Positions 35,961 through 53,121 of a DNA stretch of 64,000 nucleotides are shown in pieces; within the stretch, counting starts at the first letter, position 1, and every line of letters starts with the position of its first letter. Position numbers and translations under genes: made by a program. The notes beneath the pieces are model-generated. The model saw only the letters and a list, made by a program, of their open reading frames with translations. It searched no databases and had not been told where the DNA came from. Source of the stretch: an uncultured Acidobacteriota bacterium (lineage in GTDB: Bacteria; Acidobacteriota; Vicinamibacteria; Fen-336); contig OY970399.1 of assembly GCA_963720545.1 (NCBI GenBank), positions 352,001 through 416,000 of the forward strand, in the 5' to 3' direction.

Positions 35961-38900
35961 CTAGAACTCGAGGCGCAGCGCGAACTGCAGCGCGCGCGGC
36001 AGCCAGTTGGGCGCCGTGCTGGTGATGAAGCCGGCGTTCGAGTGGCACGTTCCCGGGGATGCCGATAGTTGGAGTTCGGGGTTCGCCAGGTTGACGTGGT
36101 TGAACACGTTCTGCGCCTCGACACGGAACTCCAGGTTGCGGCGGTCGCCCACAGAGAAGCGCTTGAAGAGCGACGCGTCCACGTTCCACGAGCCCGGGGC
36201 CCGCGGAACTCGTTGCGCGGCAGGTCACCGAAAGTACCTGCCGCCGGCCGGCCAAAGGCGCTGCCCGAAGCTGCCGATCGGCGTCACGTTGAAGTAGGGG
36301 CGAGGTGATGCCGTCGCCGCTGCCGATTCTGACGTCGCCGATCAGGTTCGGACGGTTGGTTTGCGCCGGTGTCACGGTCGGCGCCGGCTCCAGCGTAGTC
36401 GATGTTGAAAGGCAGCCCGCTCTGGACGGTGGCATTCGCGTTCACCTGCCAGCCGCCCAGGAGCGCCTGCTTCAGGCCCGAGGCGTCGGTCATGAACTTG
36501 CGACCCTTGCCGAACGGCAGCTCGGCGAGGCCGGACAGCACGAACACGTGCGTGCGGATGAAGTCGGCCGGGCCGTAGTTGAGGCTCGGGGTCGATGAAG
36601 AAGTAGTCGGGCGAGTTGTTCTTGTGCTTCTGGTAGGTGTAGTGCGCGAGCAGCTGGTAGCCGTTCGAGAAGCGCTTGGTGAGCTTGCTCTGGAACGAGT
36701 TGTAGCGGCTCTTGCCGGTGTTCGAGAAGTAGTCGATGCCCTGCGTCCATCCGTAGGCGCCCGACAGGCCGTCGATCGTTTGCACGTTGCCGTTGAAGAA
36801 CGGTCGGCGCTCATCGGTCGAGAGCGTGCCGAAGCCGACGATCGTCGGTCTGGTTGGTGTTGGTCGCCGGGTTGTCGCCGAAGAAGCCGTTGCCGCGGTT
36901 GCCGACGTAGGCGACTTCGAGCGAGACCGAGTCGGACAGCTGGCGCTGCACCGTCAGGTTGTAGGCGTCCACGTGCGACAGGTTCTGGGTCGACGGCAGC
37001 AAGCGCGCCGAGACGCCGGTCGGTAGCGGGAACGTGCCATCGGCGCCCACGGCGGGCGACGGCGGCGCAGCCGGTCCCTGATTCAGAGTTGAACACGCTT
37101 GTCGAAGTTATTCGCCGGAGTGTTGTTCCTGCAAAGCGAGCACCGGCAGGTTCTGCGTGACCGCGTGGCCGAAGGTCGAGCCGAACACGCCGATGTCGTA
37201 GCTGCGGCCGTAGCCCAGGCGGACGACCGTTTTCTCGTCCAGCTGGTAGGTGATGCCCAGCCGCGGCGCCCAGTTGATCTTGTTCTTGACGTTGCCGGCG
37301 AGGTTCACGTCGCCGACGCCGCCCACCAGGATGCGGCCGGTGGCGATGTCGAGCCAGCCGCCGTTTCCTGCCTCGTTGACCGTCTGCGGGTTGATGATGT
37401 CGGTCCGCAGGCCGTAGGCGACGGTCAGCTTCGGCGTGGCGCGCCAGGTGTCCTGCGCGTAGAAGAACTCGCGCCACTGCCGCTCGCGGGCCTTGGTGCT
37501 GCTGCTGACGTAGCGGCTGAACTTGGTCACGTCGCCGAGCATGAAGCTGGCGATGCCGATGCCGCCGCCGTCGGGGCCGCGGGTGCGGTCAGCCTCGAAG
37601 TACAGCTGGCCGGAACGGTGGGCGTCCGAGGGCACGCGCAGGTTGTAGGGCGCGGCGGATGTCGAAGCCGAACTTGGCGGTGTGGTTGCCGAAGATCTTG
37701 GTGAGGTTGGAGACGAACTGGAACTGCTTCTCGTGCTCGGCGAGCGGACAGTTGCAGCGGCCGGCGTCGAGGCCCGAGCCGAAGCGGATCTGGTTGGTGC
37801 CGCCATTGAACTCGAAGAACGGCAGGCCCGACGCGAAGGTGTCGTCGAGGTTGAGGCCAGGGATGCCGGCGTCGGCCGCGGGCGTCGTGCCGAAGTCGTT
37901 CGGCAGCACGTCGACACCGTACTTGTAGAAGCCGAGACGGACGTCCATGACCGTCGTCGAGTTGAAGGTGTAGTCGGCGCCGATGCGCGACGACTGTGGT
38001 TGCGCACCTTCGACTGGCCGCCGAGGCTGACGAGCTCGGAGCCGCCGCCGGCGCCGAACGCCTGCGGGCCGGTGAGGTCGTAGCGCTGGTAGCTGTAGCG
38101 CGCGAACAGGTTGAGGTTCTCGCTCAGTCGGCCGTCAAGCCGGAGGTTGGCCGCGTCGTTGTCGAACGCTTCGCTGCCCTGGGCGATGTAGTTGTCGCGG
38201 ATGCCGGGTGCGTTCGGCAGCGGCAGCAGGTTGAGGATGGCGAGCGCCTGCGGCGAGAGGCGGTTCGTCGGGATGACGTTGCCGGCGAACTGCTGGCGGT
38301 TGTTGGGATCGCCGCCGGCCGGGTCGTAGATGTTGACGCCGTATTCGCTGAAGTTGCCCTGGCGTGCGAGCGCCGTGGGAACGGTCAGGCGCTTGGCGCC
38401 GCCGATCGAGCTGCGCGTGCCCTGAGTAGTCGCCGAAGAAGAAGAACTTGTCGCGTTTGCAGCGGGCCGCCGAGCGACAGCGCCGAACTGGTCCTTCTTG
38501 GTCTCGGGCAGGACGCGGCCGGTCAGCGGGTTCTCGACGTCCGGCTGGCTGAACGGGTTACGGGCCTGGAACTTGTCGGTGCGGTGGAACTCGAAGGCGC
38601 TGCCGTACAGCTCGTTGCGGCCCGACTTCGTCTGCACGGCGACGACGCCGGCGATCGCCTGGCCGAACTCGGCCTCGTAGTTCTGCGAGGTGACCTTCGA
38701 CTCGCCGATCGACTCGAGCGTCGGGTTGATGACGATGATGCCGAGGATCGGGTCGCGGTTGTCGGTGCCGTCCAACTGGTAGCCGGTGCCGCTGAAGGTC
38801 TGGCCATTCACGACGGTCTGCGCCGAGCCCTGCGGGTTCTCGCTCGCGGCGTGGCCCCACGACTGCTGCTGGGTGCCCGGCGTGAGCAGCAGGAACTTGG

Positions 38901-39385
38901 TGAAGTTGCGGTCGAGGATGGGCAGCTCGGTGACCTGGCGCTGGTCGAAGGTGGTGGCGACGTCGGCGCGGTCGGTCTTCAGCAGCTGGCCTTCTCCGCC
39001 GACGACCGTGATGGTGTCGGTGGCGCCGGGCGCGAGCTTGAGGTCTACCTTCGTCTGCGTGTCGACGCTGACGCGGATGCCCTTGGCGAGCGCGGCGTTG
39101 AAGCCGGAAAGCTCGGCCTTCACTTCGTAGGTTCCCGGGAGGAGACGATCCTTGGTGTAGTTCCCCGATCCGTTCGTGACCACCGTGTCTGAAGTGTTGC
39201 GCTCGACGCTCGTCACCGTGACGTTCACGCCGGGCATCACCGCGCCGGTGCTGTCGACGACGTTGCCGGCGACGCTGCCGTAGACAGCCTGCGCGCGGGC
39301 AGATCGCGCCGGACATCAGCAGCAGCGACACGGCCCACGCTGCAACCACCCCGAGCCGGGCAGTGCGGGCAATCGAAACACTCAT
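35961..39385 (-). pseudogene. Oar-type TonB-dependent receptor with CarboxypepD_reg N-domain, broken by many frameshifts (pseudogene or assembly error)
   Basis: Signal peptide; YGSVAGNVVDSTGA, LPILDRNF, AEFG, YAQDTWR, NWAPRLG, AYVGNRG, FRVEAQNVFNHVN, PRALQFALRLEF spread over all three minus frames. Confidence 0.85.
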
Positions 39386-39413
39386 GGGTAACCTCTAACG
39401 TTTGAGTTAAGGC

Positions 39414-39482
39414 GTAACCGCTGTAAAAAACTGTTTCCTGTCCGAATTATTGGTCAATTGCTCGATCCTTGCAAGCGGTTTT
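39414..39482. promoter_or_regulatory. Two candidate LacI-family operators in the divergent TBDR/glycosidase promoter
   Basis: GTAACCGCTGTAAA (39414-39427) and TGCAAGCGGTTTT (39470-39482) share an inverted AGCGGTT core in an AT-rich gap. Confidence 0.4.
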
Positions 39483-39533
39483 GTCACTTTCCTGTGAAAA
39501 GTGCGAGGCTTGGCCCCGGAGGCACAAAAGTTA

Positions 39534-42139
39534 ATGACACCAGTGGGATGGGCCCTGGCGGCCATGCTGTCGGGTACCCCCGGCGATCTCGTCCGCACGG
39601 GGGACGTCCGGCAGGCGTCCTTTTTCGACGTCGTGGGCCGGCGCTCGGCGGCTGTGGGATACGAGGGACGTGGCTTCGAGGTCTGGGTGCCTCCCCTGCA
39701 GGTGGCAAGCGACGTGCGGCTGAGCTTCAAGCTGCGCGGCTACCCGCTCGACATCGACGGCGCCACCGCGGCCACCGGCGTCACGGTCCGCCCCGAATCG
39801 ACCACCTTTACGTATACCCACGCCGCGTTCACGGTGCGCCAGACCCTCTGGGCGCCCATCGACGAACCGGCGGTGGTGATGCGTCTCGAGGTGGAGAGCG
39901 TCCTGCCGCTGACCATCTACGGCTCGTTCCGGCCGCGCCTCAAGCTCATGTGGCCCGCGGGCCTGATGACGAACAACGTCGAGTGGAAGGACGACGCGCA
40001 CGTCTACGTGCTGAGCGAAGAGGCGAAGCAGTACGCCGCCGTCCTCGGCGGCCCGCTCGTCCGGGACCTCTCGGTGATGCCCTACCAGGAGGAGCCGCGC
40101 GACGTGCCGGTGCGCTTCGAGATCGAGCCGCCCGAGGGCGCAACCTCCTACTCCACCTGGGTGCTGTTCAGCGCCGCGGTGGGCACAGCCAAGGAAGCGC
40201 AGGCGGCCCACAACCGCATCGCCGCTGCGCTCCCCGAGTCTTACAAGAAGACCGTCGAGCACTTCCAGGCGCTCACCGGCGGGCGCGTCTGCGGTCGAAA
40301 CGCCCGATGCGCGCATCGACGAGGCGTTCGCGTGGGCCAAGGTCGGCCTCGACAAGGGCATCATGACGAACCCGACGCTCGGAACTGGTCTCGTCGCCGG
40401 GTTCCGAACCGCGGGCGACAGCGAGCGGCCGGGCTTCGCGTGGTTCTTCGGACGCGATGCGCTGTGGAGCAGCTTCGCGCTGTCTTCGACCGGCGACTTC
40501 GCGAACGTCCGCACGGCGCTCGACTTTCTCGCGAAGTACCAGAGGAAGGACGGCAAGATCCCGCACGAGATTTCGCAGTCGGCGGCGCTCATTCCCTGGT
40601 TCAGCGGCTATAAGTACCCGTGGAACGCCACCGATGCGACGCCGCTCTTCGTGATCGCACACGCCGACCTCTATCGCGCCACCGGCGACGCGGCCTACCT
40701 GAAGGAATCGTGGGACGGGATCGCGCGGGCCTGGCGCTACGCGGCCGCGAGCGACCTCGACCACAACGGCCTCATCGACAACTCGAAATCGGGCCACGGC
40801 TGGGTCGAGGGCGGTGCTCTCTATCCGCCGCACGAAGAGTTCTACCTGCAAGGCCTCTGGATCGAGGCGTGCAGCGCGATGGCAGAGCTGGCCGCTGTAG
40901 CGGGCGACGCGCCGGCCGCGAAGCTCGCGAAGGACGCCGGCGCGCGTGCCGCGGCGGCGGCCGAAAAAATTTACTGGCTGCCCGAGCGCGGCTTCTACGC
41001 GTTTGCCACCATGCAGCCGCCCGAGGAGCCGCGCAAGGCCGACCCCGGGCCGAACCGGGAACGCATCGCGAAGCGCATGGCGCAGCTCGACAAGGCGGCG
41101 ATCGTCGATGAAGACACCGTGCTGCCGGCGGTGCCGCTGTGGTTCGGACGTGCGCAGGACGAACGCGCGCAGTCGCAGGTCGACCACCTCGGCGCCGCGG
41201 CAATGGCCGCCGACTGGGGCCAGCGCATCATCGCGAACGACAGCGAACTCTATGACCCGATTTCATACCATTACGGCTCGGTGTGGCCGCTCTTCACCGG
41301 CTGGACTGCGATGGGCGCCTACCGCTACGGCCGCCCGCACGTTGCCTTCCAGTCGTTGATGGCGAACGTGCTGCTCGACGCGCCTGGCGCGCGCGGCTCG
41401 GTGACCGAACTGCTCTCGGGCGACTTCATGTATCCCTTCGGCCGCTCGTCGCCGCACCAGGTCTGGTCGGAGGCCATGGTGCTGACGCCGATCGTGCGCG
41501 GCTTGTTCGGCCTCGAGCTTTCGCAAGGCGGCAAGGCGCTGCGCATCGCGCCGCAGTTGCCGGCAACGTGGGAGCACGCGGCGGTACGCCGGATTCCGGC
41601 GGCGGGCGGCGCCGTCGACCTGGTGTTCGAGCGCGCGCCCGGCAGGTTCACGGTCGCTGCGTCACGCTCGGGCGCCGCTCCGTTACGCCTGCTCCTCTCC
41701 CCCGCCTTCCCGCAGGATGCGCGGGTCGCGCGCGTCACGGCCGCCGGCAAGGAGCTGCCGTTCACGCTCGAGCGTCGCGGCGACCGCCAGTTCGTGAAAG
41801 CCGAAGTGGACGGCCTGGACGACGCCGGCGATGGACGTCGTCTTCGAGGTGGACGGCGGCAGCGACGTCGCCACCGCGTTCGCGGACCTGCGCAGCGGCG
41901 AACGCAGCAGCGGCATTCGCATCCTGCGCTCGAGCGCGAGCCCTGATCGGCTGGCTCTGCTCGTCGAAGGACGCGCCGGCCAGACCTACGATCTCGCGCT
42001 GCGCACTGCGAAGCAGCCGGTTGCAGCCGACCGCACCGCGCTGGCGCCGGACGGGCCCGGGACCTACCGGCTGACCGTGTCGTTCACCGGCAGCGGCGCC
42101 GGGTACGTGCGCCGCGACCTCGTCATCCAGCTGCGCTGA
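39534..42139 (+). CDS. Amylo-alpha-1,6-glucosidase / glycogen-debranching-like (alpha/alpha)6 glycoside hydrolase; frameshifts near 40285 and 41830
   Basis: WFFGRD, GKIPHE, DATPLF, YHYGSVWP, SSPHQVWS; ORFs 39501..40613, 40363..41946 and 41831..42139 join into one protein. Confidence 0.8.
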
Positions 42140-42146
42140 CGCGCGG

Positions 42147-43397
42147 CTAGAACGGCTTCTCCGCCGCGAGGTGCTCCGCCGGCTCGGCGGCGCCGCCGCG
42201 CTGCGCCTCGGCGAGCCGCTGGTACGGCACCAGCAGCAGCGCGAGCAGCGCCATCGGCACGAGCGGGAAGTAGTACGCGTCGTGGGTGTTGAACTGGCGC
42301 GAGATGAAGCCGACGATCAGCGAGCCGGTGGTGCCGCCGAGCGCCGAGAACACGATGATGAGGCCGGCCATCGCCGCGTGCCGCGGCTTCTGCAGCCGGC
42401 TCAGGACGATCGACACGATGGTCGGGTAGATCGGCCCGATGAAGAAACCGATGCAGGAGAACACCACGGCGAGCGCCGGCACCGACACCTGGCCGGCGGC
42501 GGGTGCCGCGGCGCGGGTCGCGAGCAGTACCCCGCCGAGTAGCGCCATGCCCGAGACGAGCAGCGTGCACTGCACCGGGAGCCACGACAGGCGCCGCGCG
42601 AGATAGCCGTTCACGAAGCGGCTGAGCGCGATGGAACCGGCGTAGAGGCTGAGGAGGCCGGCGGCGGCGGCGGGCGCCAGGCCGAAGACGCGCTCGTGGA
42701 AGGTGGGCAGCCAGGTGCCGACGCTCTGCTCGATCATCACATAGAGCCAGGCGCACAGCACGAACACCCACACCATCGGCAGCGACAGCAGGCGCAGCAT
42801 CTCGACGAATCCGGCCTGCTCGGGATGCGAGCCGACCTCGCTCTCGTCGAGCTGCGTCGTCAGGAGCAGCAGGAATGCGCAGACCGCCAGGGCGGCAATG
42901 CCCCAGTAGGTCACGCGCCAGTTGGCGCCGCTCGCGAGCGCGTAGGAGAAGCACAGCGGCCCGGCGAGGGCGCCCACCTGGAAGATGCCCTCGAGGATGT
43001 TCATCAGGCTCGTGTGTTCCTTCTGCCCGTTCGTGATGAGCCCGACGGTCGCGTAGACGGCGCCCTTCATCATCGCGAAGCTCACGCCGATCGTCATGTA
43101 GAGGGCCGGCACCACCCAGAAGGCGGGCACCGTTGCGACCATGACGCTCGCGGCCGCCACCGCCAGGAGGCCGCCGAGCATCGAGCGGCGGTAGCCGAGG
43201 CGCGGCAGGTACGAGGCGAACAGGAAGGACGCGCCCGCGATCGACAGGTCCTTGAAGGCTTCGAGGCTCGAGGCCACGGCTTCGGAGACGGCGTAGTCGT
43301 CGATGACGCGCTTGATGACGATGCCGACGGTGTTGAGCAGCACCGCGAACACCACGAAGTTGAGCGCGATCGAGGCGCGCACCCGCCAGTTCGCCAA
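42147..43397 (-). CDS. MFS sugar transporter (FucP/GluP-like)
   Basis: About 12 TM helices, LEAFKDLSIA, YVMIEQ, GPIYPT. Confidence 0.85.
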   Translation of the reverse strand: MANWRVRASIALNFVVFAVLLNTVGIVIKRVIDDYAVSEAVASSLEAFKDLSIAGASFLFASYLPRLGYRRSMLGGLLAVAAASVMVATVPAFWVVPALYMTIGVSFAMMKGAVYATVGLITNGQKEHTSLMNILEGIFQVGALAGPLCFSYALASGANWRVTYWGIAALAVCAFLLLLTTQLDESEVGSHPEQAGFVEMLRLLSLPMVWVFVLCAWLYVMIEQSVGTWLPTFHERVFGLAPAAAAGLLSLYAGSIALSRFVNGYLARRLSWLPVQCTLLVSGMALLGGVLLATRAAAPAAGQVSVPALAVVFSCIGFFIGPIYPTIVSIVLSRLQKPRHAAMAGLIIVFSALGGTTGSLIVGFISRQFNTHDAYYFPLVPMALLALLLVPYQRLAEAQRGGAAEPAEHLAAEKPF

Positions 43398-43400
43398 GAG

Positions 43401-45146
43401 CTACTCCCCTTTCGCGGCGGCGCGTCCCTCGCCTTCGACCAGGGTGACGACGCGGTTCGCCGCTTGCGGGCCGAATTCTTCCACGAGTCCGCTCGGCCAA
43501 CGCACCTCGACCCGATCCGCCTGCTTCGCGTCGCCCAGGCCGTAGTGCAGCCGGAAGTCGTTCACGGAGTAGTAGCTCGACTGGCTGAGCAGCGCCTGCG
43601 CCTGGCTGCGGCCGCCAGCGGTAACGATGAGAGTGGCGCCGAGCGCGGAGCGGTTCGAACGCGTGCCGCGCAGGCGGAACGCAAGCCACGCGCGTGCCGG
43701 CGCCAGGTCGTTGCGCAGCAGCGACGGCGGCTCGTTCATGTTCATGACCAGCACGTCCACGTCGCCGTCGTTGTCGTAGTCGCCGAAGGCGGCGCCGCGG
43801 CTCGAGTGCGCCGCCGTCGCGCCGGGACCGCTCAGCGCGCTGACGTCACGAAAGGTGCCGCCGCCGAGGTTCGCGAACACGATGCGCGGGCTGCGGTGCG
43901 GATATTGCGGCAGGTGCTGCTCGATCTCCGGATAGACGTTGCCGGTGACATAGAAGATGTCGGGCAGCCCGTCGTTGTCGAGGTCGGGCAGGCCGCCTCC
44001 CCATTCGACGTAGCGGTTCTGCGCCGCAAGACCGGAGACGCTCGCCACGTCCTCGAACAGGCCGCCGCCGGCGTTGCGGTAGAGCGCGGGGATGTCGTCG
44101 GCGAAGTGCATCTTCAATATGTCGAGCCGGGAGTCCGCGTCGTAGTCGCCGACCGCGAGGCCCATGCCGGCCTGCGCGTTGCCGTACTCGCTGAACGCCG
44201 CGCCGCTCGCGATGGCGCGGTCGGTGAAGGTGCCGTCGCGGTTGTTGCGATAGAGGATGGCGGCGGTGGTGTCGCAGGCGACGTAGAGGTCCACCCAGCC
44301 GTCGCCGTCGAAGTCGGCGGCCGCAACGGTCATCGCGTAGCGCTCCTTCGCCGCCGCGATGCCCGACCGCTCGGAGACGTCTCGAAAGGTGCCGTCCGGC
44401 TCCTGATGGAACAGCTGTTGCGTCTCGAACGGCAGGCCCTTCGGTCCGCAATTGACGGCAATGCCTTTCCACAGGCAGTTCGCCCCGTGGCCCTTTTCGG
44501 CGGCGGTTGCGAGGTCGAACTTCAGGTAGTTCGAGACGAACAGGTCGAGGCGGCCGTCGCGGTCGTAGTCGATGAAGCTGCAGCCACTGCCCCAGCGGGT
44601 TGCGTTCGACGCGAGGCCGCTCTGCGCGGTCGCGTCGGTGAAGCTGCCGGCGCCGGCATTGCGGAACAGACGGTTCTGGCCGTACGCCGTGAGGTACAGG
44701 TCGGTGCGGCCGTCGTTGTCGTAGTCGCCGGCGCAGGCGCTCGACGCCCAGCCAGACGTGCCCAGCCCGGAACGCGCGGTGATGTCCTCGAAGCGGCCGC
44801 TGCCGCGGTTGCGATAGAGGCGCGTCACCGGCGCGTCGGCGGCGCTCCACGAGGCGAGCGCGCGCGTGCCCGGCTGGAGGCGCGCGCCGTTCATCACCAG
44901 CGCGTCGATGAAGCCGTCGTCGTCGACGTCGAGCCAGGCGACGCCCGTGCCATTCGTCTCGATGATGAAGCGCTTCTCGGTTTCGCCGCCGTAGATCACC
45001 GGCCGCGTGAAGCCCGCGGCCTGCGCCACGTCCACGAAACGCACGAGCCAGCCCGGCGCGGCGTCGGCGCGGGCGGCGGAGCGGGCGCCGGCGGCTGCCA
45101 GCAGCGCGGCGCCGGCGAGGACGAACACCGGCCTCACTGGCGTCAC
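43401..45146 (-). CDS. CRTAC1-family FG-GAP/ASPIC-UnbV protein
   Basis: Signal peptide, DYDNDG repeats, CLWKGIAVNCGPKGL, SNRSALGA, HYGLG, WPSG. Confidence 0.9.
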   Translation of the reverse strand: MTPVRPVFVLAGAALLAAAGARSAARADAAPGWLVRFVDVAQAAGFTRPVIYGGETEKRFIIETNGTGVAWLDVDDDGFIDALVMNGARLQPGTRALASWSAADAPVTRLYRNRGSGRFEDITARSGLGTSGWASSACAGDYDNDGRTDLYLTAYGQNRLFRNAGAGSFTDATAQSGLASNATRWGSGCSFIDYDRDGRLDLFVSNYLKFDLATAAEKGHGANCLWKGIAVNCGPKGLPFETQQLFHQEPDGTFRDVSERSGIAAAKERYAMTVAAADFDGDGWVDLYVACDTTAAILYRNNRDGTFTDRAIASGAAFSEYGNAQAGMGLAVGDYDADSRLDILKMHFADDIPALYRNAGGGLFEDVASVSGLAAQNRYVEWGGGLPDLDNDGLPDIFYVTGNVYPEIEQHLPQYPHRSPRIVFANLGGGTFRDVSALSGPGATAAHSSRGAAFGDYDNDGDVDVLVMNMNEPPSLLRNDLAPARAWLAFRLRGTRSNRSALGATLIVTAGGRSQAQALLSQSSYYSVNDFRLHYGLGDAKQADRVEVRWPSGLVEEFGPQAANRVVTLVEGEGRAAAKGE

Positions 45147-46135
45147 TGGCGGTTCCCCGGTTCGGGCAACGCGCTCGCGGCGGCGAACTCGCGCGCCGCC
45201 TCGTCTTCCCTGCCGAGCCGCTGCAGCGCCTGCGCCAGCAGGTAGTGCGCCGCGCGGTTGTTCGGGTCGAGCCCGGTCGCCTTGCGCAGGTTGCCTTCCG
45301 CGGCGGCCAGGTCGCCGGTGCGCAGGTACGCGCGGCCGAGCAGGATGTAGGGGCCGCTGTAGTCCGGGTTGATCCAGGTGGAGCGCAGCAGCACCGCAAG
45401 CGCCTCCTTCGTCCTGCCCTGTCGCAGGTGCGCGTCGCCCAGCCGGTCCATCGCGAGCGCGTTTGCGGGGTTGAGGGCGAGTTCCTGCTGTAGCAGCGTC
45501 ACCGCTTCGTCGAGGCGGCCGCGGAAGAGAGCGGACTGCCCCAGCAGGAAGTGCGCCTGCGGCAGCTTCGGGTCGAGCTGCACCGCGCGCTTCAGTTCGG
45601 CGTCGCCCGCGTCCTCGAAGCCGGCGCGGATCATCATTTGCGCGGTGACGAGCGACGCGGCGGCGGAATCGGCAGCGACCCCGAATGCCTTCGCCCAGGC
45701 GCCGCGCGCTTTGCTGGAGTCGTTCGCCTGCACGTAGGCGATGCCGAGCGCGTAGGCAGTGTCGGTGCTTTGCGGAAACGCGCGCTGCGTCTCCTCGAGA
45801 TACGGGATCGCCTCGCCGATGCGACCGCTGACGTAGAGCGCGAGGCCGAGCACCTGCACGGCCTCGGGGCGCTCGCTTGCCGAAGGTCCGAGTGCCGCGA
45901 CCGCCGGGCGCAGCACCTCGATTGCCGCGCGCGGGTCGTCCGCATGGAAGAGGGCGATGCCGAGGAGCACCTGCGCCGCGGGATCGGTGCCGCCTTGCGC
46001 GCGCAACAGCGCGACGGCCTCCTTCGCGTGTCCTGCGTCGATCAGGGCGCGCGCGTCTTGCGGCTTCGTCTCAGCCTGAACTTGCGCAAGGCCCAGCCCG
46101 CCGGCCACTGCAACCGCGAACAGGAGCATGCTCAT
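45143..46135 (-). CDS. Secreted TPR protein
   Basis: Signal peptide MSMLLFAVAVAGGLGLAQVQA, tandem TPRs. Confidence 0.82.
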   Translation of the reverse strand: MSMLLFAVAVAGGLGLAQVQAETKPQDARALIDAGHAKEAVALLRAQGGTDPAAQVLLGIALFHADDPRAAIEVLRPAVAALGPSASERPEAVQVLGLALYVSGRIGEAIPYLEETQRAFPQSTDTAYALGIAYVQANDSSKARGAWAKAFGVAADSAAASLVTAQMMIRAGFEDAGDAELKRAVQLDPKLPQAHFLLGQSALFRGRLDEAVTLLQQELALNPANALAMDRLGDAHLRQGRTKEALAVLLRSTWINPDYSGPYILLGRAYLRTGDLAAAEGNLRKATGLDPNNRAAHYLLAQALQRLGREDEAAREFAAASALPEPGNRQ

Positions 46136-47825
46136 CGCGGTTTCTGCCCGCTGGCTTCGCCTGCTTGCCTTCAACAAGTTCGATGAAGCGATCGACCTTG
46201 AGGCCGGACCAAGACTCTTCGCCACCCGCCGGCCAGCGCACCGTGACCTTGTCGACCCGTTCCGCCCTGCCGAGGCCGAAGTGCACGCGCAGGTCGTTCT
46301 GCGAGATATAGCTGCCGGCGCCGCGCACTTCCTCCACCAGGCGCAGTTCGCCCGCCGCGAGCGTGACGCGCGCGCCGATGGCGTCCCGGTTCGAGCGCTT
46401 GCCGACGAGCCGCAACGTTATCCAGTGGTTCGACGGGTCGGCACGGAGCCTGTAGAGGTCGGGCGTGTCGTGAACGTTGTTCACCAGCACGTCCACCGAG
46501 CCGTCGTTGTCGAAGTCGCCAAAGGCCGCGCCGCGTGCCGCCTTCGGCTCGGTCATCGCCGCACCGAGCGCTTCGGTGATGTCCTCGAAGCGGCCGTTCT
46601 GCAGGTTGCGGTACACGACCTTGCGCTGCTGGTACGCGGCCTCGGTCGCGAGCTTGTGCACCTCGGGATAGACGTGGCCGTTCGCCAGGAACAAGTCGAG
46701 CCACGAGTCGTTGTCGAGGTCGATGAAGCCGGCGCCCCAGCCGAGCCAGCGGGTATTGCGGCCGAGCCCGGCGGCGAAGGTGCGGTCTTCGCACGAGCCG
46801 CGGCCGGTGTTGCGGTAGAGCGAGGTGGTGTCGCCGGCGAAGTTGGTCTTGACGATGTCCATGGCGCCGTCGTGATCGTAGTCGCCGATGGCGAGGCCCA
46901 TGCCGGCCTGCGGCTTGCCGTCCTGACTGTAACCGCAGCCGGCGGAGACGCCGACGTCTGTGAAGGTGCCGTCGTGGTTGTTGCGGTACAGGGCGCTCGG
47001 GTTGCTGTCGTTGGCGACATAGGCGTCGCTCCAACCGTCGTCGTCGAAGTCGAAGCTGACAGCGCCGAGGCCGTAGGTGCCATTGGCTCTCGTGATGCCG
47101 CTGCGTTCGGAGACGTCCTCGAAGCGCAGCCCGCCGAGGTTGTGGTACAGGATGTTCTTGCCGCCGCGCAGTCCCGGCGGACCGCAAGCCACGGGAATGC
47201 CCTTGTAACGGCACAGGCCACTCTCCGGAGTCGGCGCGGTCTTGAGGTCGAGGTCGATGTAGTTCGCGACGATGAGGTCGAGGCGGCCGTCGCGGTCGTA
47301 GTCGAAAAAGGCGCAGCCGGTGCTCCAGCGGTCGGCCGGGTCGCGCGTGCCCGACGCCGCGCTGATGTCCTCGAACGTGCCGTTGCCCTTGTTGCGATAC
47401 AGGCGGTTGCGGCCGAAGTAGGTCACGAACAGGTCTTCGTAGCCGTCGTTGTCGATGTCGCCCGCGCACACGCCCTGGCCCCAGCCGCTCGCACCCAGGC
47501 CAGAGGCCTGAGTGACGTCGGTGAAGGTGCCGTCGCCGCGATTGCGATAGAGGTGGTTGATCGGCTCTTCGCCCTTCGGGAAGCCCGCGAGCGTCGAGCC
47601 GTTCACCAGGAACACGTCGAGGTTGCCGTCGTTGTCGTAATCGATGAAGCCGGCGCCGCAGCCGGTGGTCTCGAGGAGGTAGCGGTTCTCTTCCTTGCCG
47701 CCGAAAACCGTGACCGCGGCGAGTCCAGCTTCCTTTGCCACGTTCGTGAAGCCGAACTGCAGCGGCGGCGTGGACGCCGCCTGCGCAGCTGCGAGCGTGA
47801 GCGCCGCTGCCGCGAGCAGCTTCAT
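46071..47825 (-). CDS. CRTAC1-family FG-GAP/ASPIC-UnbV protein
   Basis: Signal peptide, LLETTGCG, DYDNDG repeats, CRYKGIPVACGPPGL, SNRDAIGA, HFGLG. Confidence 0.9.
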   Translation of the reverse strand: MKLLAAAALTLAAAQAASTPPLQFGFTNVAKEAGLAAVTVFGGKEENRYLLETTGCGAGFIDYDNDGNLDVFLVNGSTLAGFPKGEEPINHLYRNRGDGTFTDVTQASGLGASGWGQGVCAGDIDNDGYEDLFVTYFGRNRLYRNKGNGTFEDISAASGTRDPADRWSTGCAFFDYDRDGRLDLIVANYIDLDLKTAPTPESGLCRYKGIPVACGPPGLRGGKNILYHNLGGLRFEDVSERSGITRANGTYGLGAVSFDFDDDGWSDAYVANDSNPSALYRNNHDGTFTDVGVSAGCGYSQDGKPQAGMGLAIGDYDHDGAMDIVKTNFAGDTTSLYRNTGRGSCEDRTFAAGLGRNTRWLGWGAGFIDLDNDSWLDLFLANGHVYPEVHKLATEAAYQQRKVVYRNLQNGRFEDITEALGAAMTEPKAARGAAFGDFDNDGSVDVLVNNVHDTPDLYRLRADPSNHWITLRLVGKRSNRDAIGARVTLAAGELRLVEEVRGAGSYISQNDLRVHFGLGRAERVDKVTVRWPAGGEESWSGLKVDRFIELVEGKQAKPAGRNRDEHAPVRGCSGRRAGPCASSG

Positions 47826-49456
47826 GAGGTGCGCCCTTTGCGGCCGTAATAGGGAGCGAGGCGGATGGCCTCGGTGCGCTCCGCGCGCGCGCCCGCGCTG
47901 TCGCCGCGCTTTTCGAGGAGCTCGGCCAGCCGCCAGTGTGCCTCGGCATTGTCGGGCATGAGCTGCAGCGTCTCGCGCAACCCCTCGATGGCGCCGCCGT
48001 CGTCGCCGGCCTTCGCCTTCGCCTCCGCCGCCGCAAACGCGAAGGCGGCCGCCTGCGCGTCGGACTTCTTCTTGTTGAGCTGGTCGGCCACGGCGAACGC
48101 GGCCCGCGCGCCCTCCGCGTCGTCGCGACCCTTCAGGATCTGTCCAAGCAGCAATTGCGCTTCTGCCATCCGCGGCGCGAGACGCACGGCCTCGCGCACT
48201 TCGGAGAGCGCCTCGTCGTTCTCACCTTGCTGCACCAGCACCGTTGCCAGCATCGAGTGCGCCTCGGCGTAGTCGGGACGCACCACGGTGGCGGCGCGGA
48301 ACGACGTCGCCGCTTCCTCGGCGCGTCCCGTCTGCCAGTAGATGACGCCGAGCGTGTACGGCGCGTCGGGCAGCGTCGGGTCGAGGGCTACGGCGCGCTT
48401 CAGTTCGGTTTCGGCCGGGCCGAAGTCATCCTTCTGCTTCAGCGCCATGCCGAGGTTGTAGGCCGCCACCGCGTTCGACGGTGCGCGCTGCGCGAGGTCG
48501 CGGTAGAGGTTGACGGCTGCTTCGAGTTCGCCCTTCTGCAGCAGGGCGGTGCCGAGGTTCACGCGCGCCGTGACATCGTCGTCGTGGTCCTCGAGCCAGG
48601 CTTTCAGCAGCACCATGGCTTCGTCGGCGGCGCCTTTCTCGATGAGCGCGATGCTGAGCGCGCTGGTGATCTCGGCGGAGTCCGGCTGCAGCTCGCGCGC
48701 CGCGCGCAGCTCCTCGACTGCGCCGGTGCGGTCGCCCATCTCCTGGAGCAAGAGCCCGAGCTGCAGCCGCGCGAGGCCGAGCGCCGGGTCGAGCTCGACG
48801 GCGCGGTCCAGCTCGCGCAGAGCGTCGGCCGGATGGCCGAGCTTGCGGTGCACCAGGCCGAGGTAGTAGCGGCTTTCCGCATGCGCGTCGCGCAGGGCTA
48901 CGGCGCGCGCGAGCGGCCCGAGCGCGCCGGCGGAGTCGCCGGTCCACCAGAGCGTGGCGCCGAGGTGGTACTGCGCGTCGAACAGCTTCGCGTCGAGCGC
49001 CACGGCCTCGCGAAACTGCTGCAGCGCCTCGCCGGTACGGCCCTGCTGGCCGCGCACGAAGCCGAGCCGGTCGTGCGCGGGCGCGAACTTCGCATCGAGC
49101 GCGATCGACTTCGCGAATGCGGCCGCCGCTTCGTCGAGGCTGCGGCGCGCCTCGAACACCAGGCCGAGGATGTAGGGCGGCTGCGCATTCCGCGGCTCGA
49201 GCCGGGCCGCCGATTCCAGCTGCTGCTGCGCGTCGTCATAACGGCCGGCCTGGTAGAGCGTGAGGCCCGCGGCTATGGCGTGCTGCGCCGTCTGCGCGCG
49301 TGCGGGTTTGGCGGCGGCGGGCTTGGCGGCGGCAGGCCCGGCAGGCTGCGCCGGCCGCGCGGCCATGGCCTTCGGGGTGCTGCCCGGCGCGAGCGCAACG
49401 GCCAGTGTGGCGAGGGCGAGAGCGGCGCCACGGGCGGGCCGCGGGCGGAGGAACAT
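47822..49456 (-). CDS. Secreted long TPR protein
   Basis: Signal peptide, Pro/Ala linker, more than ten TPRs; ATG at 49456 preferred over the longer ORF-track call. Confidence 0.85.
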   Translation of the reverse strand: MFLRPRPARGAALALATLAVALAPGSTPKAMAARPAQPAGPAAAKPAAAKPARAQTAQHAIAAGLTLYQAGRYDDAQQQLESAARLEPRNAQPPYILGLVFEARRSLDEAAAAFAKSIALDAKFAPAHDRLGFVRGQQGRTGEALQQFREAVALDAKLFDAQYHLGATLWWTGDSAGALGPLARAVALRDAHAESRYYLGLVHRKLGHPADALRELDRAVELDPALGLARLQLGLLLQEMGDRTGAVEELRAARELQPDSAEITSALSIALIEKGAADEAMVLLKAWLEDHDDDVTARVNLGTALLQKGELEAAVNLYRDLAQRAPSNAVAAYNLGMALKQKDDFGPAETELKRAVALDPTLPDAPYTLGVIYWQTGRAEEAATSFRAATVVRPDYAEAHSMLATVLVQQGENDEALSEVREAVRLAPRMAEAQLLLGQILKGRDDAEGARAAFAVADQLNKKKSDAQAAAFAFAAAEAKAKAGDDGGAIEGLRETLQLMPDNAEAHWRLAELLEKRGDSAGARAERTEAIRLAPYYGRKGRTS

Positions 49457-49492
49457 GCTGTTCGATGTTAGTTGAAGTGTTATGTTCGCGCG

Positions 49493-50152
49493 GTGGGATT
49501 GGGGCGCAAGCTGAAGATGGTGGGCCTCGGCATCGCGGCAGTGGCTGCCCTGGGCGCGGCCTCGTTCTACGGCTACATGCAGCTGGTCAAGGCCGGCTAC
49601 ATCAAGTACAACAAGTACGACAAGCGCTCGCGCGGCGAGCTGCAGGTCGGCAGCCAGGTGCCCGACCTCGAGGTCGCGATGTACGACGGCAGCAAGGGAC
49701 GGCTCTCCGACCTGTGGAACCGCCCGGTGATGCTGGTGTTCGGCAGCTGCACCTGACCGCCGTTCCGCAAGAAGATCGTGGATCTTCATCGCATTTACGA
49801 CAAGTACAAGGACCGGGCGGAATTCCTCACCGTCTACATTTCCGAGGCCCACCCGAACGACGAGTGGCAGATGGACTCGAACCGCAAGGAGCAGTTCGTC
49901 TACGACCAGCCGAAGAACTTCGAGGCGCGCCGCGAGCTCGCGAAGGTGTTGGTGGACCGCCTGCAGTACCGCATCCCGGTCGCCATCGACAGCATCGACA
50001 ACCGCGCCGAGTCGCTGTTCGGCGCCTGGCCCGAACGCATCTACGTGCTGGAACCGGGCGGCCGCATCGCCTTCAAGGGAGAAATGGGCCCGTTCGGCTT
50101 CCACCCCGACGAAGGCGAAAAGGCACTGGCAGCTGTCCTCGCCAAACAGTAA
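49493..50152 (+). CDS. Iodothyronine deiodinase-like selenoprotein (Sec at UGA 49754-49756), N-terminal TM anchor
   Basis: ORFs 49472..49756 and 49778..50152 are in the same frame: RPVMLVFGSCT-U-PPF, VYISEAHPNDEW, AWPERIYV, GPFGF; alternative start ATG 49517. Confidence 0.9.
49767..49792 (+). promoter_or_regulatory. Putative bacterial SECIS hairpin
   Basis: GAAGATC(49771-77)-GTG-GATCTTC(49781-87) perfect stem; G-initiated apical loop begins 21 nt after the UGA. Confidence 0.65.
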
Positions 50153-50277
50153 GCCTTCATTTCCTGAGTGTTGACTGAAGGCTGAGTATTGACTGAAGCC
50201 TAGGGGTTGACTGAAGCCACGAGGATTACTCAGTCACTCCTCGGGCAGCAGCCAACGACACGCTGCCCTCGTCGGGC
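50150..50277 (+). repeat. Composite repeat element, copy L: 3 x TTGACTGAAG (18-bp period) plus two hairpins
   Basis: Cores at 50171, 50189, 50207; GGGCAGC-AGCCAACGACAC-GCTGCCC hairpin. Confidence 0.9.
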
Positions 50278-50282
50278 TACCC

Positions 50283-52904
50283 TCATCGAGCGTTACTCCA
50301 ATTCATGAGCAAAGTCAGCGGGGCGGTATCGAGCTGGTCGGCGGTGTTGATCAGGAAACGGCGGCCGTCGGCGGAAACGACGTACTGCTGGCGGTGGATC
50401 GGGGCGAACGGAACGATCACGGGCGCGACGAAGAGCGGCACCGGCGTGCCCACCGCCGCGGCGAGGTTGGCTTCCTCGCGAATCGCCACCGCCATCAGGT
50501 GCTTGTCGGGCGCCACGTAGAAGACCTCCTTGCCATCGGCCCGCCAACGGACCTGAGTGCCACCGCCCACGGAGACCTTGTGTCTCGAACCGGGACGCGG
50601 GAACGACTGAAGGTAGATCTCGGCATGGCCGAGCTCGTCGGATTCGAAGGCCACGAAACGGCCGTCCGGAGAAAACTGGGCATCGCGCTCGTTGTACTGC
50701 GTGCTGGCAACCCGAACCTTGTCCTGGTCTGCCACGGACCACGCCCACAGGTCGAACGTCGCCGTCGCCGGATCGATCTCCTTGTACAGCACGAACCGCC
50801 CATCGCGCGACCAGTCGGTTGCAATCCTGACGACACCACGGTCGTCCATGAGCGGCTGGTCGGCGGCCGAACCATCCAGCCGCTTGACCGTCAAGCCCCG
50901 CTGAGGAGTGTTGTAGACGAGTCTGCTGCCGTCCGCGGACCAGACTGGCATCGCGTCGACGCCGGGATCGACCGTAAGCCGGTCGAACGTGTTGCGCTCC
51001 AGGTCGAGCGTGTAGATGTCGGTGTTCTGGCGCTCGGTCGCCTGCACGGCGACGCGCTTGCCGTCCAGGGACAGGGCCGGGTTGTTGACGTACGGCGGCG
51101 CCTGCTCGCCACTCGCGACTCCCAGCTCCTTCCCCGAACGGTCGAACCAGATGAGCCGGCGGCGGCGCACCTGCGCTTCGCCGGGACGATAGGCGATCGA
51201 ACCCGCCGCGGACACGGACAGGCCGACCGAGACGCCGTCGATGACCACGCGGTCCGCGACCTGTTTCATCGTGCCGCTCAGCGTCCGCGATGCCGGGTCG
51301 AACGCCTGCGCCAGCAGAGAGCGCTCCTGCACGAACAGCAGGTGTCCCGCGGTGTAGCGGGCCGGCCCATCGGCAGCCGTCAAGCGGCGGCTTTCGGCGC
51401 CGTCGAGTGAGCCGACATAGACCCCCGGTTCCGCGTCGCCGCCTGCTGGCACGTAGAAGAGGAAGTGCCGGCCATCCGGCAGGAATTGCGGGAAGCGCGT
51501 GAGCCGGCCCGCGGTTCCGAGGACGATTTCCTTCCGCTCTCCACCCGCTGCCGGGATCTGAAACATCCCGGCGTTGTCGACCGGCACGTAGAGGATGGTG
51601 CCATCCTGATTCCACGTTCCGCCCCCCGGCGTCAGCGTATGGGCGATCGCAACTGGTGTTCCGCCGTCGAGGTTGAGCACCATGAGCCTGCTGGCGGTGA
51701 AGAAGCCGACGGAGCGGCCATCGGGCGACCAGAACGGGTGAAGCGCATCCTGAGCACCTGGAAGCGGACGCGTGGCGCCGGTGTCGAGCGAGCGCAGGAA
51801 AAGCTGCCGCCCCTCCTGCTCGCTGCCGCTGAATACGAGCGCGCGGCCATCCGGCGACAAGGCGAAGGAAGTCGGCGCGAACGTTCCGGGAGTGTCGATA
51901 TCCACGAAAGAGGCCCGGGCCGACATCGAACCCGGACGCGCCAGGCGTTGCGACGCGAACCCGGCGCCCAGAGCGACGGCGACGAGCGCGGCACCCCATG
52001 CCACGCGCTCAGGGCGCGTCACCCTCTTCGCGCGCTCGGGCGACAGCGGCTCTCCCCGCATGGCATCGTCCAGGTCCAGCCTCGCATCGGCGATGTCCTG
52101 CTGCCGCTGCCGCAGGTTCTTCTCGAGGCAGCGGCGCAGGAGTCGTTCGATGCCGGCCGGCAGCGCGGGCAGCGCCGACCACGCGGGCTCGCTCTTCAGG
52201 ACCTCGGCGATCGCGTCAGAGGCATTTTCACCCGCGAACGGCCGCCGGCCGGCGAGCATCTCGAACAAGACGACGCCGAACGACCAGATGTCGGCGCGTC
52301 GATCGACGCTCTCGCCGCGCGCCTGTTCCGGCGCCATGTAGGCCGCGGTCCCCAGCACGACTCCGGCGCGCGTGTCGTACCGGGTGAGCGTCGCCGCGGC
52401 CGGCTCGCCCCCGCCCGGGGTGCCTTCGAGGGCCTTCGCGAGCCCGAAATCCAGCACCTTGACGGTGCCGTCCTGGCGCACCTTGATGTTGGCGGGCTTC
52501 AGGTCGCGGTGGACGATGCCCCGCGCGTGCGCCGCTTCCAGGGCCTCGGCCACCGCGCGCGCGATCGCGAGCGCCGGCTCGAGGGCGATTGCACCGCGGG
52601 CCAGGCGCTCGGCAAGCGTCTCCCCCGCGACCAGCTCCATGACCACGGCACGGATGCCGCCGTCGTTCTCGAGGCCGTAGACGCGGGCGATGTTCGGGTG
52701 ATCGAGCGCTGCCAGGACGCGTGCCTCGCGTTCGAGCCGGGCCACGCGGTCGCTGTCCGCGGCGAAGGCGTCGGGCAGCACCTTGATCGCGACCTCGCGC
52801 TCCAGCCTGGTGTCGCGCGCGCGATACACCTCGCCCATGGCGCCTGCTCCGACAGCCGCGAGGATCTCGTAGGCGCCGATGCGCGAGCCGGCGGGATGCG
52901 GCAT
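50283..52904 (-). CDS. Ser/Thr protein kinase with TM segment and TolB/PD40-like beta-propeller repeats
   Basis: GAGAMGEVY, VAIK, HRDLKPANI, DFGLAK, YMAPE; SPDG repeats. Confidence 0.95.
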   Translation of the reverse strand: MPHPAGSRIGAYEILAAVGAGAMGEVYRARDTRLEREVAIKVLPDAFAADSDRVARLEREARVLAALDHPNIARVYGLENDGGIRAVVMELVAGETLAERLARGAIALEPALAIARAVAEALEAAHARGIVHRDLKPANIKVRQDGTVKVLDFGLAKALEGTPGGGEPAAATLTRYDTRAGVVLGTAAYMAPEQARGESVDRRADIWSFGVVLFEMLAGRRPFAGENASDAIAEVLKSEPAWSALPALPAGIERLLRRCLEKNLRQRQQDIADARLDLDDAMRGEPLSPERAKRVTRPERVAWGAALVAVALGAGFASQRLARPGSMSARASFVDIDTPGTFAPTSFALSPDGRALVFSGSEQEGRQLFLRSLDTGATRPLPGAQDALHPFWSPDGRSVGFFTASRLMVLNLDGGTPVAIAHTLTPGGGTWNQDGTILYVPVDNAGMFQIPAAGGERKEIVLGTAGRLTRFPQFLPDGRHFLFYVPAGGDAEPGVYVGSLDGAESRRLTAADGPARYTAGHLLFVQERSLLAQAFDPASRTLSGTMKQVADRVVIDGVSVGLSVSAAGSIAYRPGEAQVRRRRLIWFDRSGKELGVASGEQAPPYVNNPALSLDGKRVAVQATERQNTDIYTLDLERNTFDRLTVDPGVDAMPVWSADGSRLVYNTPQRGLTVKRLDGSAADQPLMDDRGVVRIATDWSRDGRFVLYKEIDPATATFDLWAWSVADQDKVRVASTQYNERDAQFSPDGRFVAFESDELGHAEIYLQSFPRPGSRHKVSVGGGTQVRWRADGKEVFYVAPDKHLMAVAIREEANLAAAVGTPVPLFVAPVIVPFAPIHRQQYVVSADGRRFLINTADQLDTAPLTLLMNWSNAR

Positions 52905-52917
52905 GCGACGGCGATTC

Positions 52918-53121
52918 TAAGCCTGCGTCATGACTGCGTTGACTGAAGCCTGGGGTCGACTGAAGCCCAGGGTTGACTGAAGCCCAGGGTTGACTGAAGC
53001 CTAGGGTTGACTGAAGCCACGAGGCTTGACTCAGTCACTCTTCGGGCCCTGCCAACGACACGGGGCCCTCATCGGGTGTCACTCTTCGGGCCCTGCCAAC
53101 GACAAGAGGGCCTCATCGGGC
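52918..53121 (+). repeat. Composite repeat element, copy R: 5 x T[TC]GACTGAAGCC (17-bp period), bulged hairpin, and a 44-bp hairpin unit duplicated in tandem
   Basis: Cores at 52939, 52956, 52973, 52990, 53007; 44-bp units start at 53034 and 53078. Confidence 0.9.

What the first reader, a model, noticed from the sequence alone, without database searches (positions are those of the whole stretch)
49493..50152. Hidden selenoprotein: iodothyronine-deiodinase-like enzyme with in-frame UGA
Seen: two short ORFs in the track are one reading frame interrupted only by TGA at 49754-49756, in the context FGSCT-TGA-PPF. Established: animal DIO1-3 have the active site FGSCT-U-P[PS]F followed by Y[IV]xEAH...W and xERL, and all of these are present (VYISEAHPNDEW, AWPERIYV), as is a DIO-like N-terminal membrane anchor. 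Bacterial DIO-like selenoproteins have been reported, but I know of no established substrate. Inference: a membrane-tethered thioredoxin-fold Sec enzyme (reductive dehalogenase or peroxidase-like) that standard annotation would split or call a pseudogene.
Basis: partly seen in the sequence, partly recalled or inferred. Interest (0 to 1): 0.85.

Follow-up and report, generated by a model that had tools for sequence, protein, structure and literature searches.

The report
Bacterial deiodinase-like selenoprotein gene
What looks like two short genes split by a stop codon is one gene whose internal UGA is very likely read as selenocysteine; it gives a membrane-anchored bacterial relative of the animal thyroid-hormone deiodinases, a family predicted in 2005 that still has no known substrate, and this member is predicted, not shown, to strip iodine or bromine from aromatic compounds.

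Summary
Confirmed. 49493-50152 (+) is one 219-codon frame broken only by TGA at 49754-56, at the catalytic position of PF00837 (E 4e-35). The genome has selA, selB, selD and tRNA-Sec. All 19 close orthologs keep TGA at that codon. A G[G/U]-loop hairpin follows it, held by rare codons (GAT-CTT in 19 of 19); such a hairpin occurs in 37 of 47 TGA genes but 1 of 72 Cys genes. The model's best structural matches are mouse Dio2 and Dio3.

The family is known: bacterial deiodinase-like selenoproteins, predicted in 2005, substrate unknown. This scan also noted it before on other DNA (130 notes). This clade has the animal-type C-T-Sec motif and most Dio catalytic residues. It lacks Dio3 His219 and the distal Cys, and probably faces the periplasm. 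It likely has its own promoter. Its neighbours vary, and a halogenase-like gene adjoins it in one genus only.

Best guess: reductive deiodination or debromination of aromatics (0.45). Main rival: a peroxidase or thiol reductase (0.33). Neither is tested. It is a real gene of a known kind and a good enzyme to assay.

The parts
49481..49486 (+). -10-like hexamer (TANNNT) 6 nt before the start codon; predicted own promoter giving a leaderless or near-leaderless mRNA
   Evidence: A TANNNT lies 4-12 nt before a candidate start in 15 of 21 related loci, against 362 of 2379 G000 genes; several starts were allowed per locus. No full sigma-70 site was found.
49493..50152 (+). Deiodinase-like selenoprotein gene, 219 aa with UGA read as Sec; GTG start, TAA stop
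   Evidence: Single PF00837 copy in the genome.
49511..49591 (+). Basic N-terminus followed by a hydrophobic helix (about residues 7-33); predicted single membrane anchor
   Evidence: Best 19-residue hydropathy window 1.78, and 1.4-2.3 in all 23 TGA loci. AF2 helix 2-33.
49748..49750 (+). Cys86, proximal cysteine (aligns to Dio3 Cys168); the only Cys in the protein; predicted resolving thiol
   Evidence: Alignment. Present in 19 of 19 close orthologs. One Cys in each of the 19.
49754..49756 (+). In-frame UGA, predicted Sec88 (aligns to Dio3 Sec170)
49771..49787 (+). Predicted bacterial SECIS: 7-bp stem with a 3-nt loop starting GU, 21 nt after the UGA
   Evidence: Fold, -10 kcal/mol. Fits the constraints in PMC13188914. 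Rare codons fixed in 19 of 19 orthologs. Hairpin in 37 of 47 TGA genes and 1 of 72 Cys genes.
49835..49867 (+). Start of the deiodinase-specific insertion (loop D): Tyr115, Glu118, His120, Trp125 (Dio3 Tyr197, Glu200, His202, Trp207)
   Evidence: Tyr 119 of 119, His 119 of 119, Glu 117 of 119, Trp 116 of 119 domains.
50027..50038 (+). W-P-E-R motif: Pro180 at the Dio3 Phe258 / Dio1 Pro213 site; Glu181-Arg182 at the Glu-Arg pair shared by all Dios
   Evidence: PMC11592359 part 4.

Best explanation
This is one intact gene whose UGA is very likely decoded as selenocysteine, giving a predicted membrane-anchored, probably periplasm-facing thioredoxin-fold enzyme that most likely works like an animal deiodinase, by pulling iodine or bromine off an aromatic ring. 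Shown by sequence and comparison: the single frame, the conserved UGA, the SECIS-type hairpin under selection, the Sec machinery, the Dio fold, and the retained residues Ser85, Cys86, Thr87, Tyr115, Glu118, His120, Trp125, Glu181 and Arg182. Inferred: SelB binds the hairpin and inserts Sec88. The selenolate takes the halogen as X+ from a halophenol-type substrate held by His120 and Trp125. Cys86 resolves the oxidised Sec as a selenenyl-sulfide. With no distal Cys, an outside thiol partner, probably a periplasmic thioredoxin-like protein fed by DsbD, re-reduces it. The natural substrate is unknown and is not a thyroid hormone. Odds: real selenoprotein gene about 0.97; dehalogenation as its reaction about 0.45.
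For: Sec gene. selA is found in 17 of 20 other TGA carriers, and selB in 2 of the 3 without it. Fold: AF2 pLDDT 96; top Foldseek hits are Dio2 9H48 (E 8.8e-15) and Dio3 4TR3 (6.1e-14), ahead of ResA (3.2e-9). Catalytic residues were mapped from the alignment, with roles from PMC12025243 and PMC11592359. The loop-D His, Tyr, Glu and Trp are nearly invariant in 119 bacterial domains. Two differences from Dio3 (Pro for Phe258, no Arg275) are also Dio1 features. Turnover with a resolving thiol: of 119 domains, 25 have Cys at -2, 80 in helix 2 and 6 in loop D, and none has two of these three; 8 have none, 3 of them with a Cys at 175. Export: 82 of 137 full-length homologs pass a signal-like test, against 741 of 2379 G000 genes. 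A DsbD domain is in the genome.
Against: No bacterial member with a measured activity turned up in 8 paper searches. The 2005 paper expects a function different from that of the animal enzymes. Dio3 His219, conserved in all Dios and part of the proposed proton relay, is Pro here and His in only 1 of 119 domains; the distal Cys239 is absent. No halogenase or dehalogenase family appears among 128 neighbours of 28 phylum loci. G000 has no PF04820 halogenase match. Co-occurrence with halogenases in the family is weak (9 of 19 against 4 of 18, p 0.17). The hairpin's folding energy alone is no better than shuffles (z from -0.94 to +0.54). Topology is not settled by charge: net +2 on both sides of the helix. 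The cysteine states change only about 6 times on the tree, so that pattern rests on few events.
Confidence: 0.45

Rival explanations
1. Same selenoprotein, but a peroxiredoxin-like peroxidase or ResA/TlpA-like thiol reductase of the cell envelope; dehalogenation arose only in animals.
For: AhpC-TSA match above cut-off (31.2 against 26 bits). ResA, Bcp and AhpE follow the Dios in the fold search. An N-terminal anchor plus thioredoxin domain is the ResA layout (recalled). Ser-x-x-Sec plus an invariant Arg recalls the Prx triad (recalled). Some distant Cys homologs are fused to AhpD/CMD-like domains (P0009, P0012, P0039). Alternative resolving-Cys sites recall the BCP/PrxQ subtypes (recalled). 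The two other selenoprotein candidates found in G000 are thiol-redox proteins.
Against: There is no CxxC or UxxC, and no Pro of the Prx PxxxTxxC motif (motif recalled). The invariant loop-D Tyr/Glu/His/Trp is not part of Prx or TlpA sites. The genome already has 13 other AhpC-TSA matches, including a Sec BCP.
Confidence: 0.33
2. Same selenoprotein acting on another small electrophile, for example reactive halogen species (haloamines, hypohalous acids) or an oxidised sulfur or selenium metabolite in the periplasm.
For: Dio chemistry is capture of X+ by the selenolate. The closed pocket is conserved but His219 is lost. Likely export. No pathway context.
Against: No direct evidence; inference only.
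Confidence: 0.17
3. A pseudogene, a sequencing error, or two separate small genes.
For: The assembly has frameshifts elsewhere (for example the molybdopterin enzyme). Two orthologs (L043, L044) are cut or frameshifted near the C-terminus. G015 carries the TGA gene but gave no selA or selB match (94% complete, 680 contigs).
Against: TGA sits at the same codon in 19 of 19 close orthologs and 25 of 27 phylum loci. The hairpin tracks TGA. Outside contigs agree. The stop would cut the fold at its active site.
Confidence: 0.03

Closest known systems
Bacterial 'deiodinase-like protein' selenoprotein family (PF00837; Zhang, Fomenko and Gladyshev 2005, PMC1088965; listed in PMC2398784, PMC9312934, PMC13188914)
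   Same: PF00837 domain, Sec at the catalytic site, bacterial SECIS just after the UGA, Cys homologs, and function unknown.
   Different: The two reviews list the motif as UxxC (the 2008 table gives none), whereas this clade has C-T-U-P-P-F with one proximal Cys. The published examples I saw are marine; public runs holding this stretch are labelled soil, rhizosphere or unspecified metagenomes. I could not see the 2005 alignment figure, so its sequences may include this motif.
Animal iodothyronine deiodinases Dio1-3 (4TR3, 9H48)
   Same: Fold. FGSCT-U-PPF as in Dio3. Ser167, Cys168, Thr169, Tyr197, Glu200, His202, Trp207, Glu259 and Arg260 equivalents. Loop-D insertion. One N-terminal membrane helix. 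Dio1-like Pro at the Phe258 site and no Arg at the 275 site.
   Different: No His219 and no distal Cys239. About 30% identity. Bacterial in-frame SECIS. Anchor not matched by the Pfam model. Probably periplasm-facing, whereas the animal catalytic domains are mostly placed in the cytosol (recalled). No thyroid hormone in the habitat.
NCBIfam NF038285 deiodinase_rel
   Same: Best NCBIfam match, E 3.6e-50, over model positions 177-345.
   Different: 171 bits is under the cut-off of 250. The model includes a long N-terminal part, found in EF-hand-bearing Cys proteins, that this protein lacks.
BCP/PrxQ peroxiredoxins and ResA/TlpA reductases
   Same: Thioredoxin fold, AhpC-TSA match, Pro at the cis-Pro site, conserved Arg, and (for ResA) an N-terminal anchor.
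   Different: No CxxC and no Prx Pro. It carries the Dio loop-D insertion. Structure scores are weaker than for the Dios.

Membership tests
Bacterial deiodinase-like selenoprotein | PF00837 domain above the curated cut-off | tested here: met
   121.6 bits against 27.
Bacterial deiodinase-like selenoprotein | In-frame UGA aligned to Sec/Cys of homologs | tested here: met
   47 TGA and 72 Cys domains in one column. The metagenome set is all Cys because the search pattern demanded Cys.
Bacterial deiodinase-like selenoprotein | [quoted passage not shown] | tested here: met
   Loop GUG, 21 nt, 7 bp, -10 kcal/mol. Selection on synonymous sites. Tracks TGA genes.
Bacterial deiodinase-like selenoprotein | Host encodes SelA, SelB, SelD and tRNA-Sec | tested here: met
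   All four are over their cut-offs; ARAGORN also finds tRNA-SeC.
Bacterial deiodinase-like selenoprotein | UxxC motif as tabulated in two reviews | tested here: not met
   The motif is C-T-U-P-P-F. None of the 47 TGA domains shows UxxC. The label probably reflects one representative; the 2008 table lists no motif.
Bacterial deiodinase-like selenoprotein | Selenium incorporation shown in the protein | not testable with these tools
   Needs 75Se labelling or mass spectrometry.
Animal iodothyronine deiodinase | Thioredoxin fold with the Dio loop-D insertion and Sec in S-[CA]-T-U-P-[PS]-F | tested here: met
Animal iodothyronine deiodinase | Proton relay His219-Glu200-Ser167 with Tyr197 and Thr169 | tested here: not met
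   Four of five are kept; His219 is Pro140.
Animal iodothyronine deiodinase | Distal cysteine (Dio3 Cys239) | tested here: not met
   Ile161; the protein has only one Cys.
Animal iodothyronine deiodinase | Reductive deiodination of iodothyronines | not testable with these tools
   Needs an enzyme assay.
Animal iodothyronine deiodinase | Active as a homodimer | not testable with these tools
   Needs biochemistry (feature).
NCBIfam NF038285 deiodinase_rel | Score of 250 bits or more | tested here: not met
   171.4 bits; only the C-terminal half of the model is covered.
Peroxiredoxin (BCP/PrxQ) | PxxxT/SxxC(U) motif plus conserved Arg (motif recalled) | tested here: not met
   Ser85-x-x-Sec88 and Arg182 are present, but the -7 position is Leu81, not Pro.

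The most novel reading that the evidence does not exclude
Soil Acidobacteriota carry a cofactor-free, selenium-based aryl dehalogenase in the periplasm. It would remove iodine or bromine from natural halophenolics by the same chemistry as thyroid deiodinases, making deiodinase chemistry a bacterial invention that animals reused. This C-T-Sec clade has reached the animal-type resolving cysteine, while sister clades use a helix-2 or loop-D cysteine instead.
Probability: 0.35. Interest if true: 0.8.

Novelty: new member of a known kind. Interest (0 to 1): 0.42.

Why it matters
Bacterial deiodinase-like selenoproteins have been predicted for twenty years with no substrate. If they dehalogenate, they add a route to the natural iodine and bromine cycles that needs no B12 or flavin, and they explain where thyroid-hormone deiodinases came from. 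This clade is a practical test case. Its active site matches Dio1/Dio3 closely, it has a single resolving Cys to mutate, and a natural Cys ortholog (L075, 58% identical) can be made without selenium recoding. The gene is also common and invisible to stop-at-UGA annotation: 19 of 37 genomes of the family, and a profile match in 46 of 301 phylum genomes. Among 150 best protein representatives the closest hits were C-terminal fragments or distant Cys forms.

Tried and rejected
Halogenase link: in G024 and G035 the gene lies 13-14 nt after a flavin-halogenase-like gene (PF04820, E about 1e-14). Both genomes are one genus. G000 has no match to any of the five cluster genes searched and no PF04820 match, and co-occurrence is not significant. 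I do not count it as support.

Conserved operon: none found. Among 19 close orthologs, 8 have an ASPIC/UnbV or FG-GAP gene within a few kb, 5 a divergent nitrilase-like gene and 4 purB. The ASPIC link is above the 1.4% background in G000, but shared ancestry can explain it; I leave it unexplained. Leads from earlier notes about dehalogenase neighbours were checked on 128 of 175 called neighbours from 28 of 30 phylum loci, with no such family found.

The idea that this is the genome's only selenoprotein was rejected: two more candidates exist. The molybdopterin hit with 3 TGA is a frameshifted gene with no Sec codon.

Homodimer prediction on the Cys ortholog L075 gave no answer (score 0.00); it is no evidence either way. 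Folding z-scores did not single out the hairpin. No sigma-70 promoter or plus-strand terminator was found. The RNA run X20 holds two depth-2 contigs of a close relative; this does not show expression. Searches for a recalled CMD-family debrominase paper found nothing, so that idea stays recalled. A suspected CcdA gene gave no Pfam or NCBIfam match. A search of earlier notes by sequence found nothing.

Full report
Observation. The frame 49493-50152 (+) has 219 codons and one internal stop, TGA at 49754-49756, in FGSCT-TGA-PPF. A table-11 ORF list cuts it into two pieces. Read through, it matches PF00837 (E 4.3e-35, residues 48-209 to profile 71-230) and, among solved structures, mouse Dio3 4TR3 (E 3.5e-24) and Dio2 9H48 (4.5e-20). 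It is the only PF00837 gene in the genome. The genome is one 4.09-Mb contig, 68.7% G+C, 95% complete. It is most likely an Acidobacteriota: L025, titled so, has the same sequence as the locus from G035 of the same family.

Is the UGA real and recoded? The genome encodes tRNA-Sec, SelA, SelB and SelD, each above its cut-off. Of 61 related genomes 25 match, and the 21 strong matches each hold one TGA. In the 26 loci checked, the codon aligned to residue 88 is TGA in 23 (22 distinct) and TGC in 3 distant ones. Nineteen genomes of the family form a close clade with C-T-TGA-P-P-F; two of these genes are damaged near the C-terminus and one runs off its contig. Across the phylum 46 of 301 genomes match a profile (this tally includes one unpublished genome, G082, on which nothing else rests). 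Of 27 of those loci examined, 25 have TGA and 2 TGC. Eighty metagenome loci are all Cys forms, because the search pattern required Cys. selA is found in 17 of the 20 other TGA carriers, and selB in two of the remaining three. Assembled contigs from 4 of 8 public runs bridge the codon unchanged; no raw reads were available.

SECIS. A 7-bp hairpin with a GUG loop lies 21 nt after the UGA (49771-49787; -10 kcal/mol). It fits the bacterial consensus in PMC13188914 (passages seen). Its energy alone is not better than shuffles, so I tested it by comparison. In 19 of 19 close orthologs the 3' arm is written GAT-CTT, codons used for 18% of Asp and 6% of Leu in G000, while Asp codons further on are GAC in 17 of 18 and 19 of 19. 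A hairpin of 5 or more pairs with a G[G/U] loop 16-23 nt downstream occurs in 37 of 47 TGA genes and 1 of 72 Cys genes, with different stem sequences in different clades. I set that rule after seeing the hairpins, and the rows are related, so the contrast is descriptive. The single Cys case, L075, sits inside the close clade and looks like a recent Sec-to-Cys change.

Anatomy. AlphaFold2 with 92 rows gives pLDDT 96: a helix at 2-33 and a thioredoxin core. Foldseek ranks Dio2 and Dio3 first (E 8.8e-15, 6.1e-14), then ResA, Bcp and AhpE (3e-9 and weaker). Numbering the 4TR3 chain from the alignment, the protein keeps Dio3 Ser167, Cys168, Thr169, Sec170, Pro172, Tyr197, Glu200, His202, Trp207, Glu259 and Arg260. 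It lacks His219 (Pro140), Cys239 (Ile161), Phe258 (Pro180) and Arg275 (Met198). Dio1 also has Pro at the 258 site and no Arg at the 275 site (PMC11592359, parts 1, 3 and 4 of 8 read), so those two differences do not set it apart from the animal family; His219 and the distal Cys do. Residue roles are from that paper and from passages of PMC12025243. In 119 non-redundant bacterial domains Tyr115 and His120 are invariant, Glu118 is in 117 and Trp125 in 116, while His at 140 is in 1.

Resolving cysteine. Besides the catalytic residue, 25 domains have Cys at -2, 80 in helix 2 and 6 in loop D, and no domain has two of these three. Eight have none, three of them with a Cys at 175, and a few have extra Cys elsewhere. 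On a tree built without those columns the state changes 6 times; the proximal Cys needs 3 changes, and the 20-row close clade has support 99. This suggests a catalytic cycle that oxidises Sec and needs one nearby thiol, but it rests on few events and does not tell dehalogenase from peroxidase.

Location and electrons. All 23 TGA loci have an N-terminal hydrophobic helix, mostly after basic residues. Charges around the helix in this protein are even. Among 137 full-length representatives 82 pass a simple signal-peptide test, against 741 of 2379 G000 genes. The longer representatives are fused to EF-hand, TPR, BNR, LTXXQ or AhpD/CMD-like domains (62 proteins scanned). I infer a periplasm-facing domain. 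G000 has a DsbD membrane domain and exported thioredoxin-like proteins that could supply electrons; no partner is shown.

Context. The gene is divergent from a TPR and ASPIC/UnbV cluster and convergent with a Ser/Thr kinase gene. A TANNNT hexamer lies just before a start codon in 15 of 21 loci, pointing to a stand-alone, probably leaderless gene. Neighbours differ among relatives (70 chosen neighbours scanned). A halogenase-like gene adjoins it in two genomes of one genus only; G000 has none, and family co-occurrence is 9 of 19 against 4 of 18. No halogenase or dehalogenase family appeared among 128 neighbours of 28 phylum loci.

Mechanism. Most likely (0.45), the selenolate removes iodine or bromine from an aromatic ring as in the Dios; Cys86 resolves it and an outside thiol restores it. 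Modelling in PMC7144113 (passages seen) makes aryl chlorides unlikely substrates for this chemistry. The case rests on conservation of the Dio-specific pocket. Against it stand the missing His219 and the lack of pathway context. A peroxidase or thiol reductase (0.33), another electrophile (0.17) and a pseudogene (0.03) are the rivals.

What is known. Bacterial Sec and Cys deiodinase-like proteins were reported in 2005 and proposed to serve an unspecified redox function (PMC1088965, passages). They are tabulated in PMC2398784, PMC9312934 and PMC13188914 (passages). The last says functions are largely uncharacterised and has no occurrence of 'Acidobacter', 'periplasm' or 'dehalogen'. A soil amoeba also has a homolog (PMC2375036, passages). 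Eight searches of the open-licence library showed no assay of a bacterial member and no description of this C-T-Sec clade. Subscription papers were not searched, and I saw no figures or supplements; the 2005 alignment figure may bear on the motif. Earlier AI notes of this scan record the family 130 times in at least 110 genomes; they are unchecked and not counted as support.

Verdict. A real, intact selenoprotein gene of a known but functionally blank family. It belongs to the bacterial deiodinase-like family and is not an animal-type iodothyronine deiodinase by membership, though it probably works like one. Interest 0.42.

Noticed in passing
window 50164-50276 and 52938-53120: A composite repeat (17-18-nt tandem units followed by a 43-nt unit) lies in the same orientation on both sides of the Ser/Thr kinase gene 50283-52904. 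Seven of the 8 genomic copies of its 10-base core are here. Public contigs break or diverge at 50158-50230, so the kinase gene may be a variable, repeat-bounded cassette.
   Followed up: partly
L192:989-1441 (G000 C1:2575617): BCP/PrxQ-type peroxiredoxin with in-frame TGA at the peroxidatic site (T-P-G-U) and a SECIS-type hairpin 17 nt downstream.
   Followed up: partly
L191:1064-2932 (G000 C1:1663676): 622-aa protein with a signal-like start, an in-frame TGA in a thioredoxin-like domain followed by a hairpin, and a C-terminal TlpA-like CxxC domain; a possible periplasmic redox partner.
   Followed up: partly
L075:299-991: Natural Cys (TGC) ortholog inside the close clade that still carries the full SECIS hairpin; one metagenome contig only.
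   Followed up: yes
L074:471-7098 and L062:7476-13999: Cluster of ASPIC/UnbV, membrane, asparagine-synthase-like, radical SAM and flavin-halogenase-like genes ending directly before the deiodinase-like gene, in two genomes of one genus.
   Followed up: yes
P0009, P0012, P0029, P0039: Secreted-looking Cys deiodinase-like domains fused to EF-hands and AhpD/CMD-like domains, a possible built-in reductase.
   Followed up: partly
window 37108-49456: TonB-dependent receptor, glycoside hydrolase, MFS transporter, two TPR and two ASPIC/UnbV genes upstream. ASPIC/UnbV or FG-GAP genes lie near the deiodinase-like gene in 8 of 19 orthologs, in different arrangements.
   Followed up: partly
L185 (G000 C1:2511000-2513900): Molybdopterin oxidoreductase gene with a frameshifted stretch, probably an assembly error. 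No Sec formate dehydrogenase was seen among the 6 PF00384 matches.
   Followed up: partly
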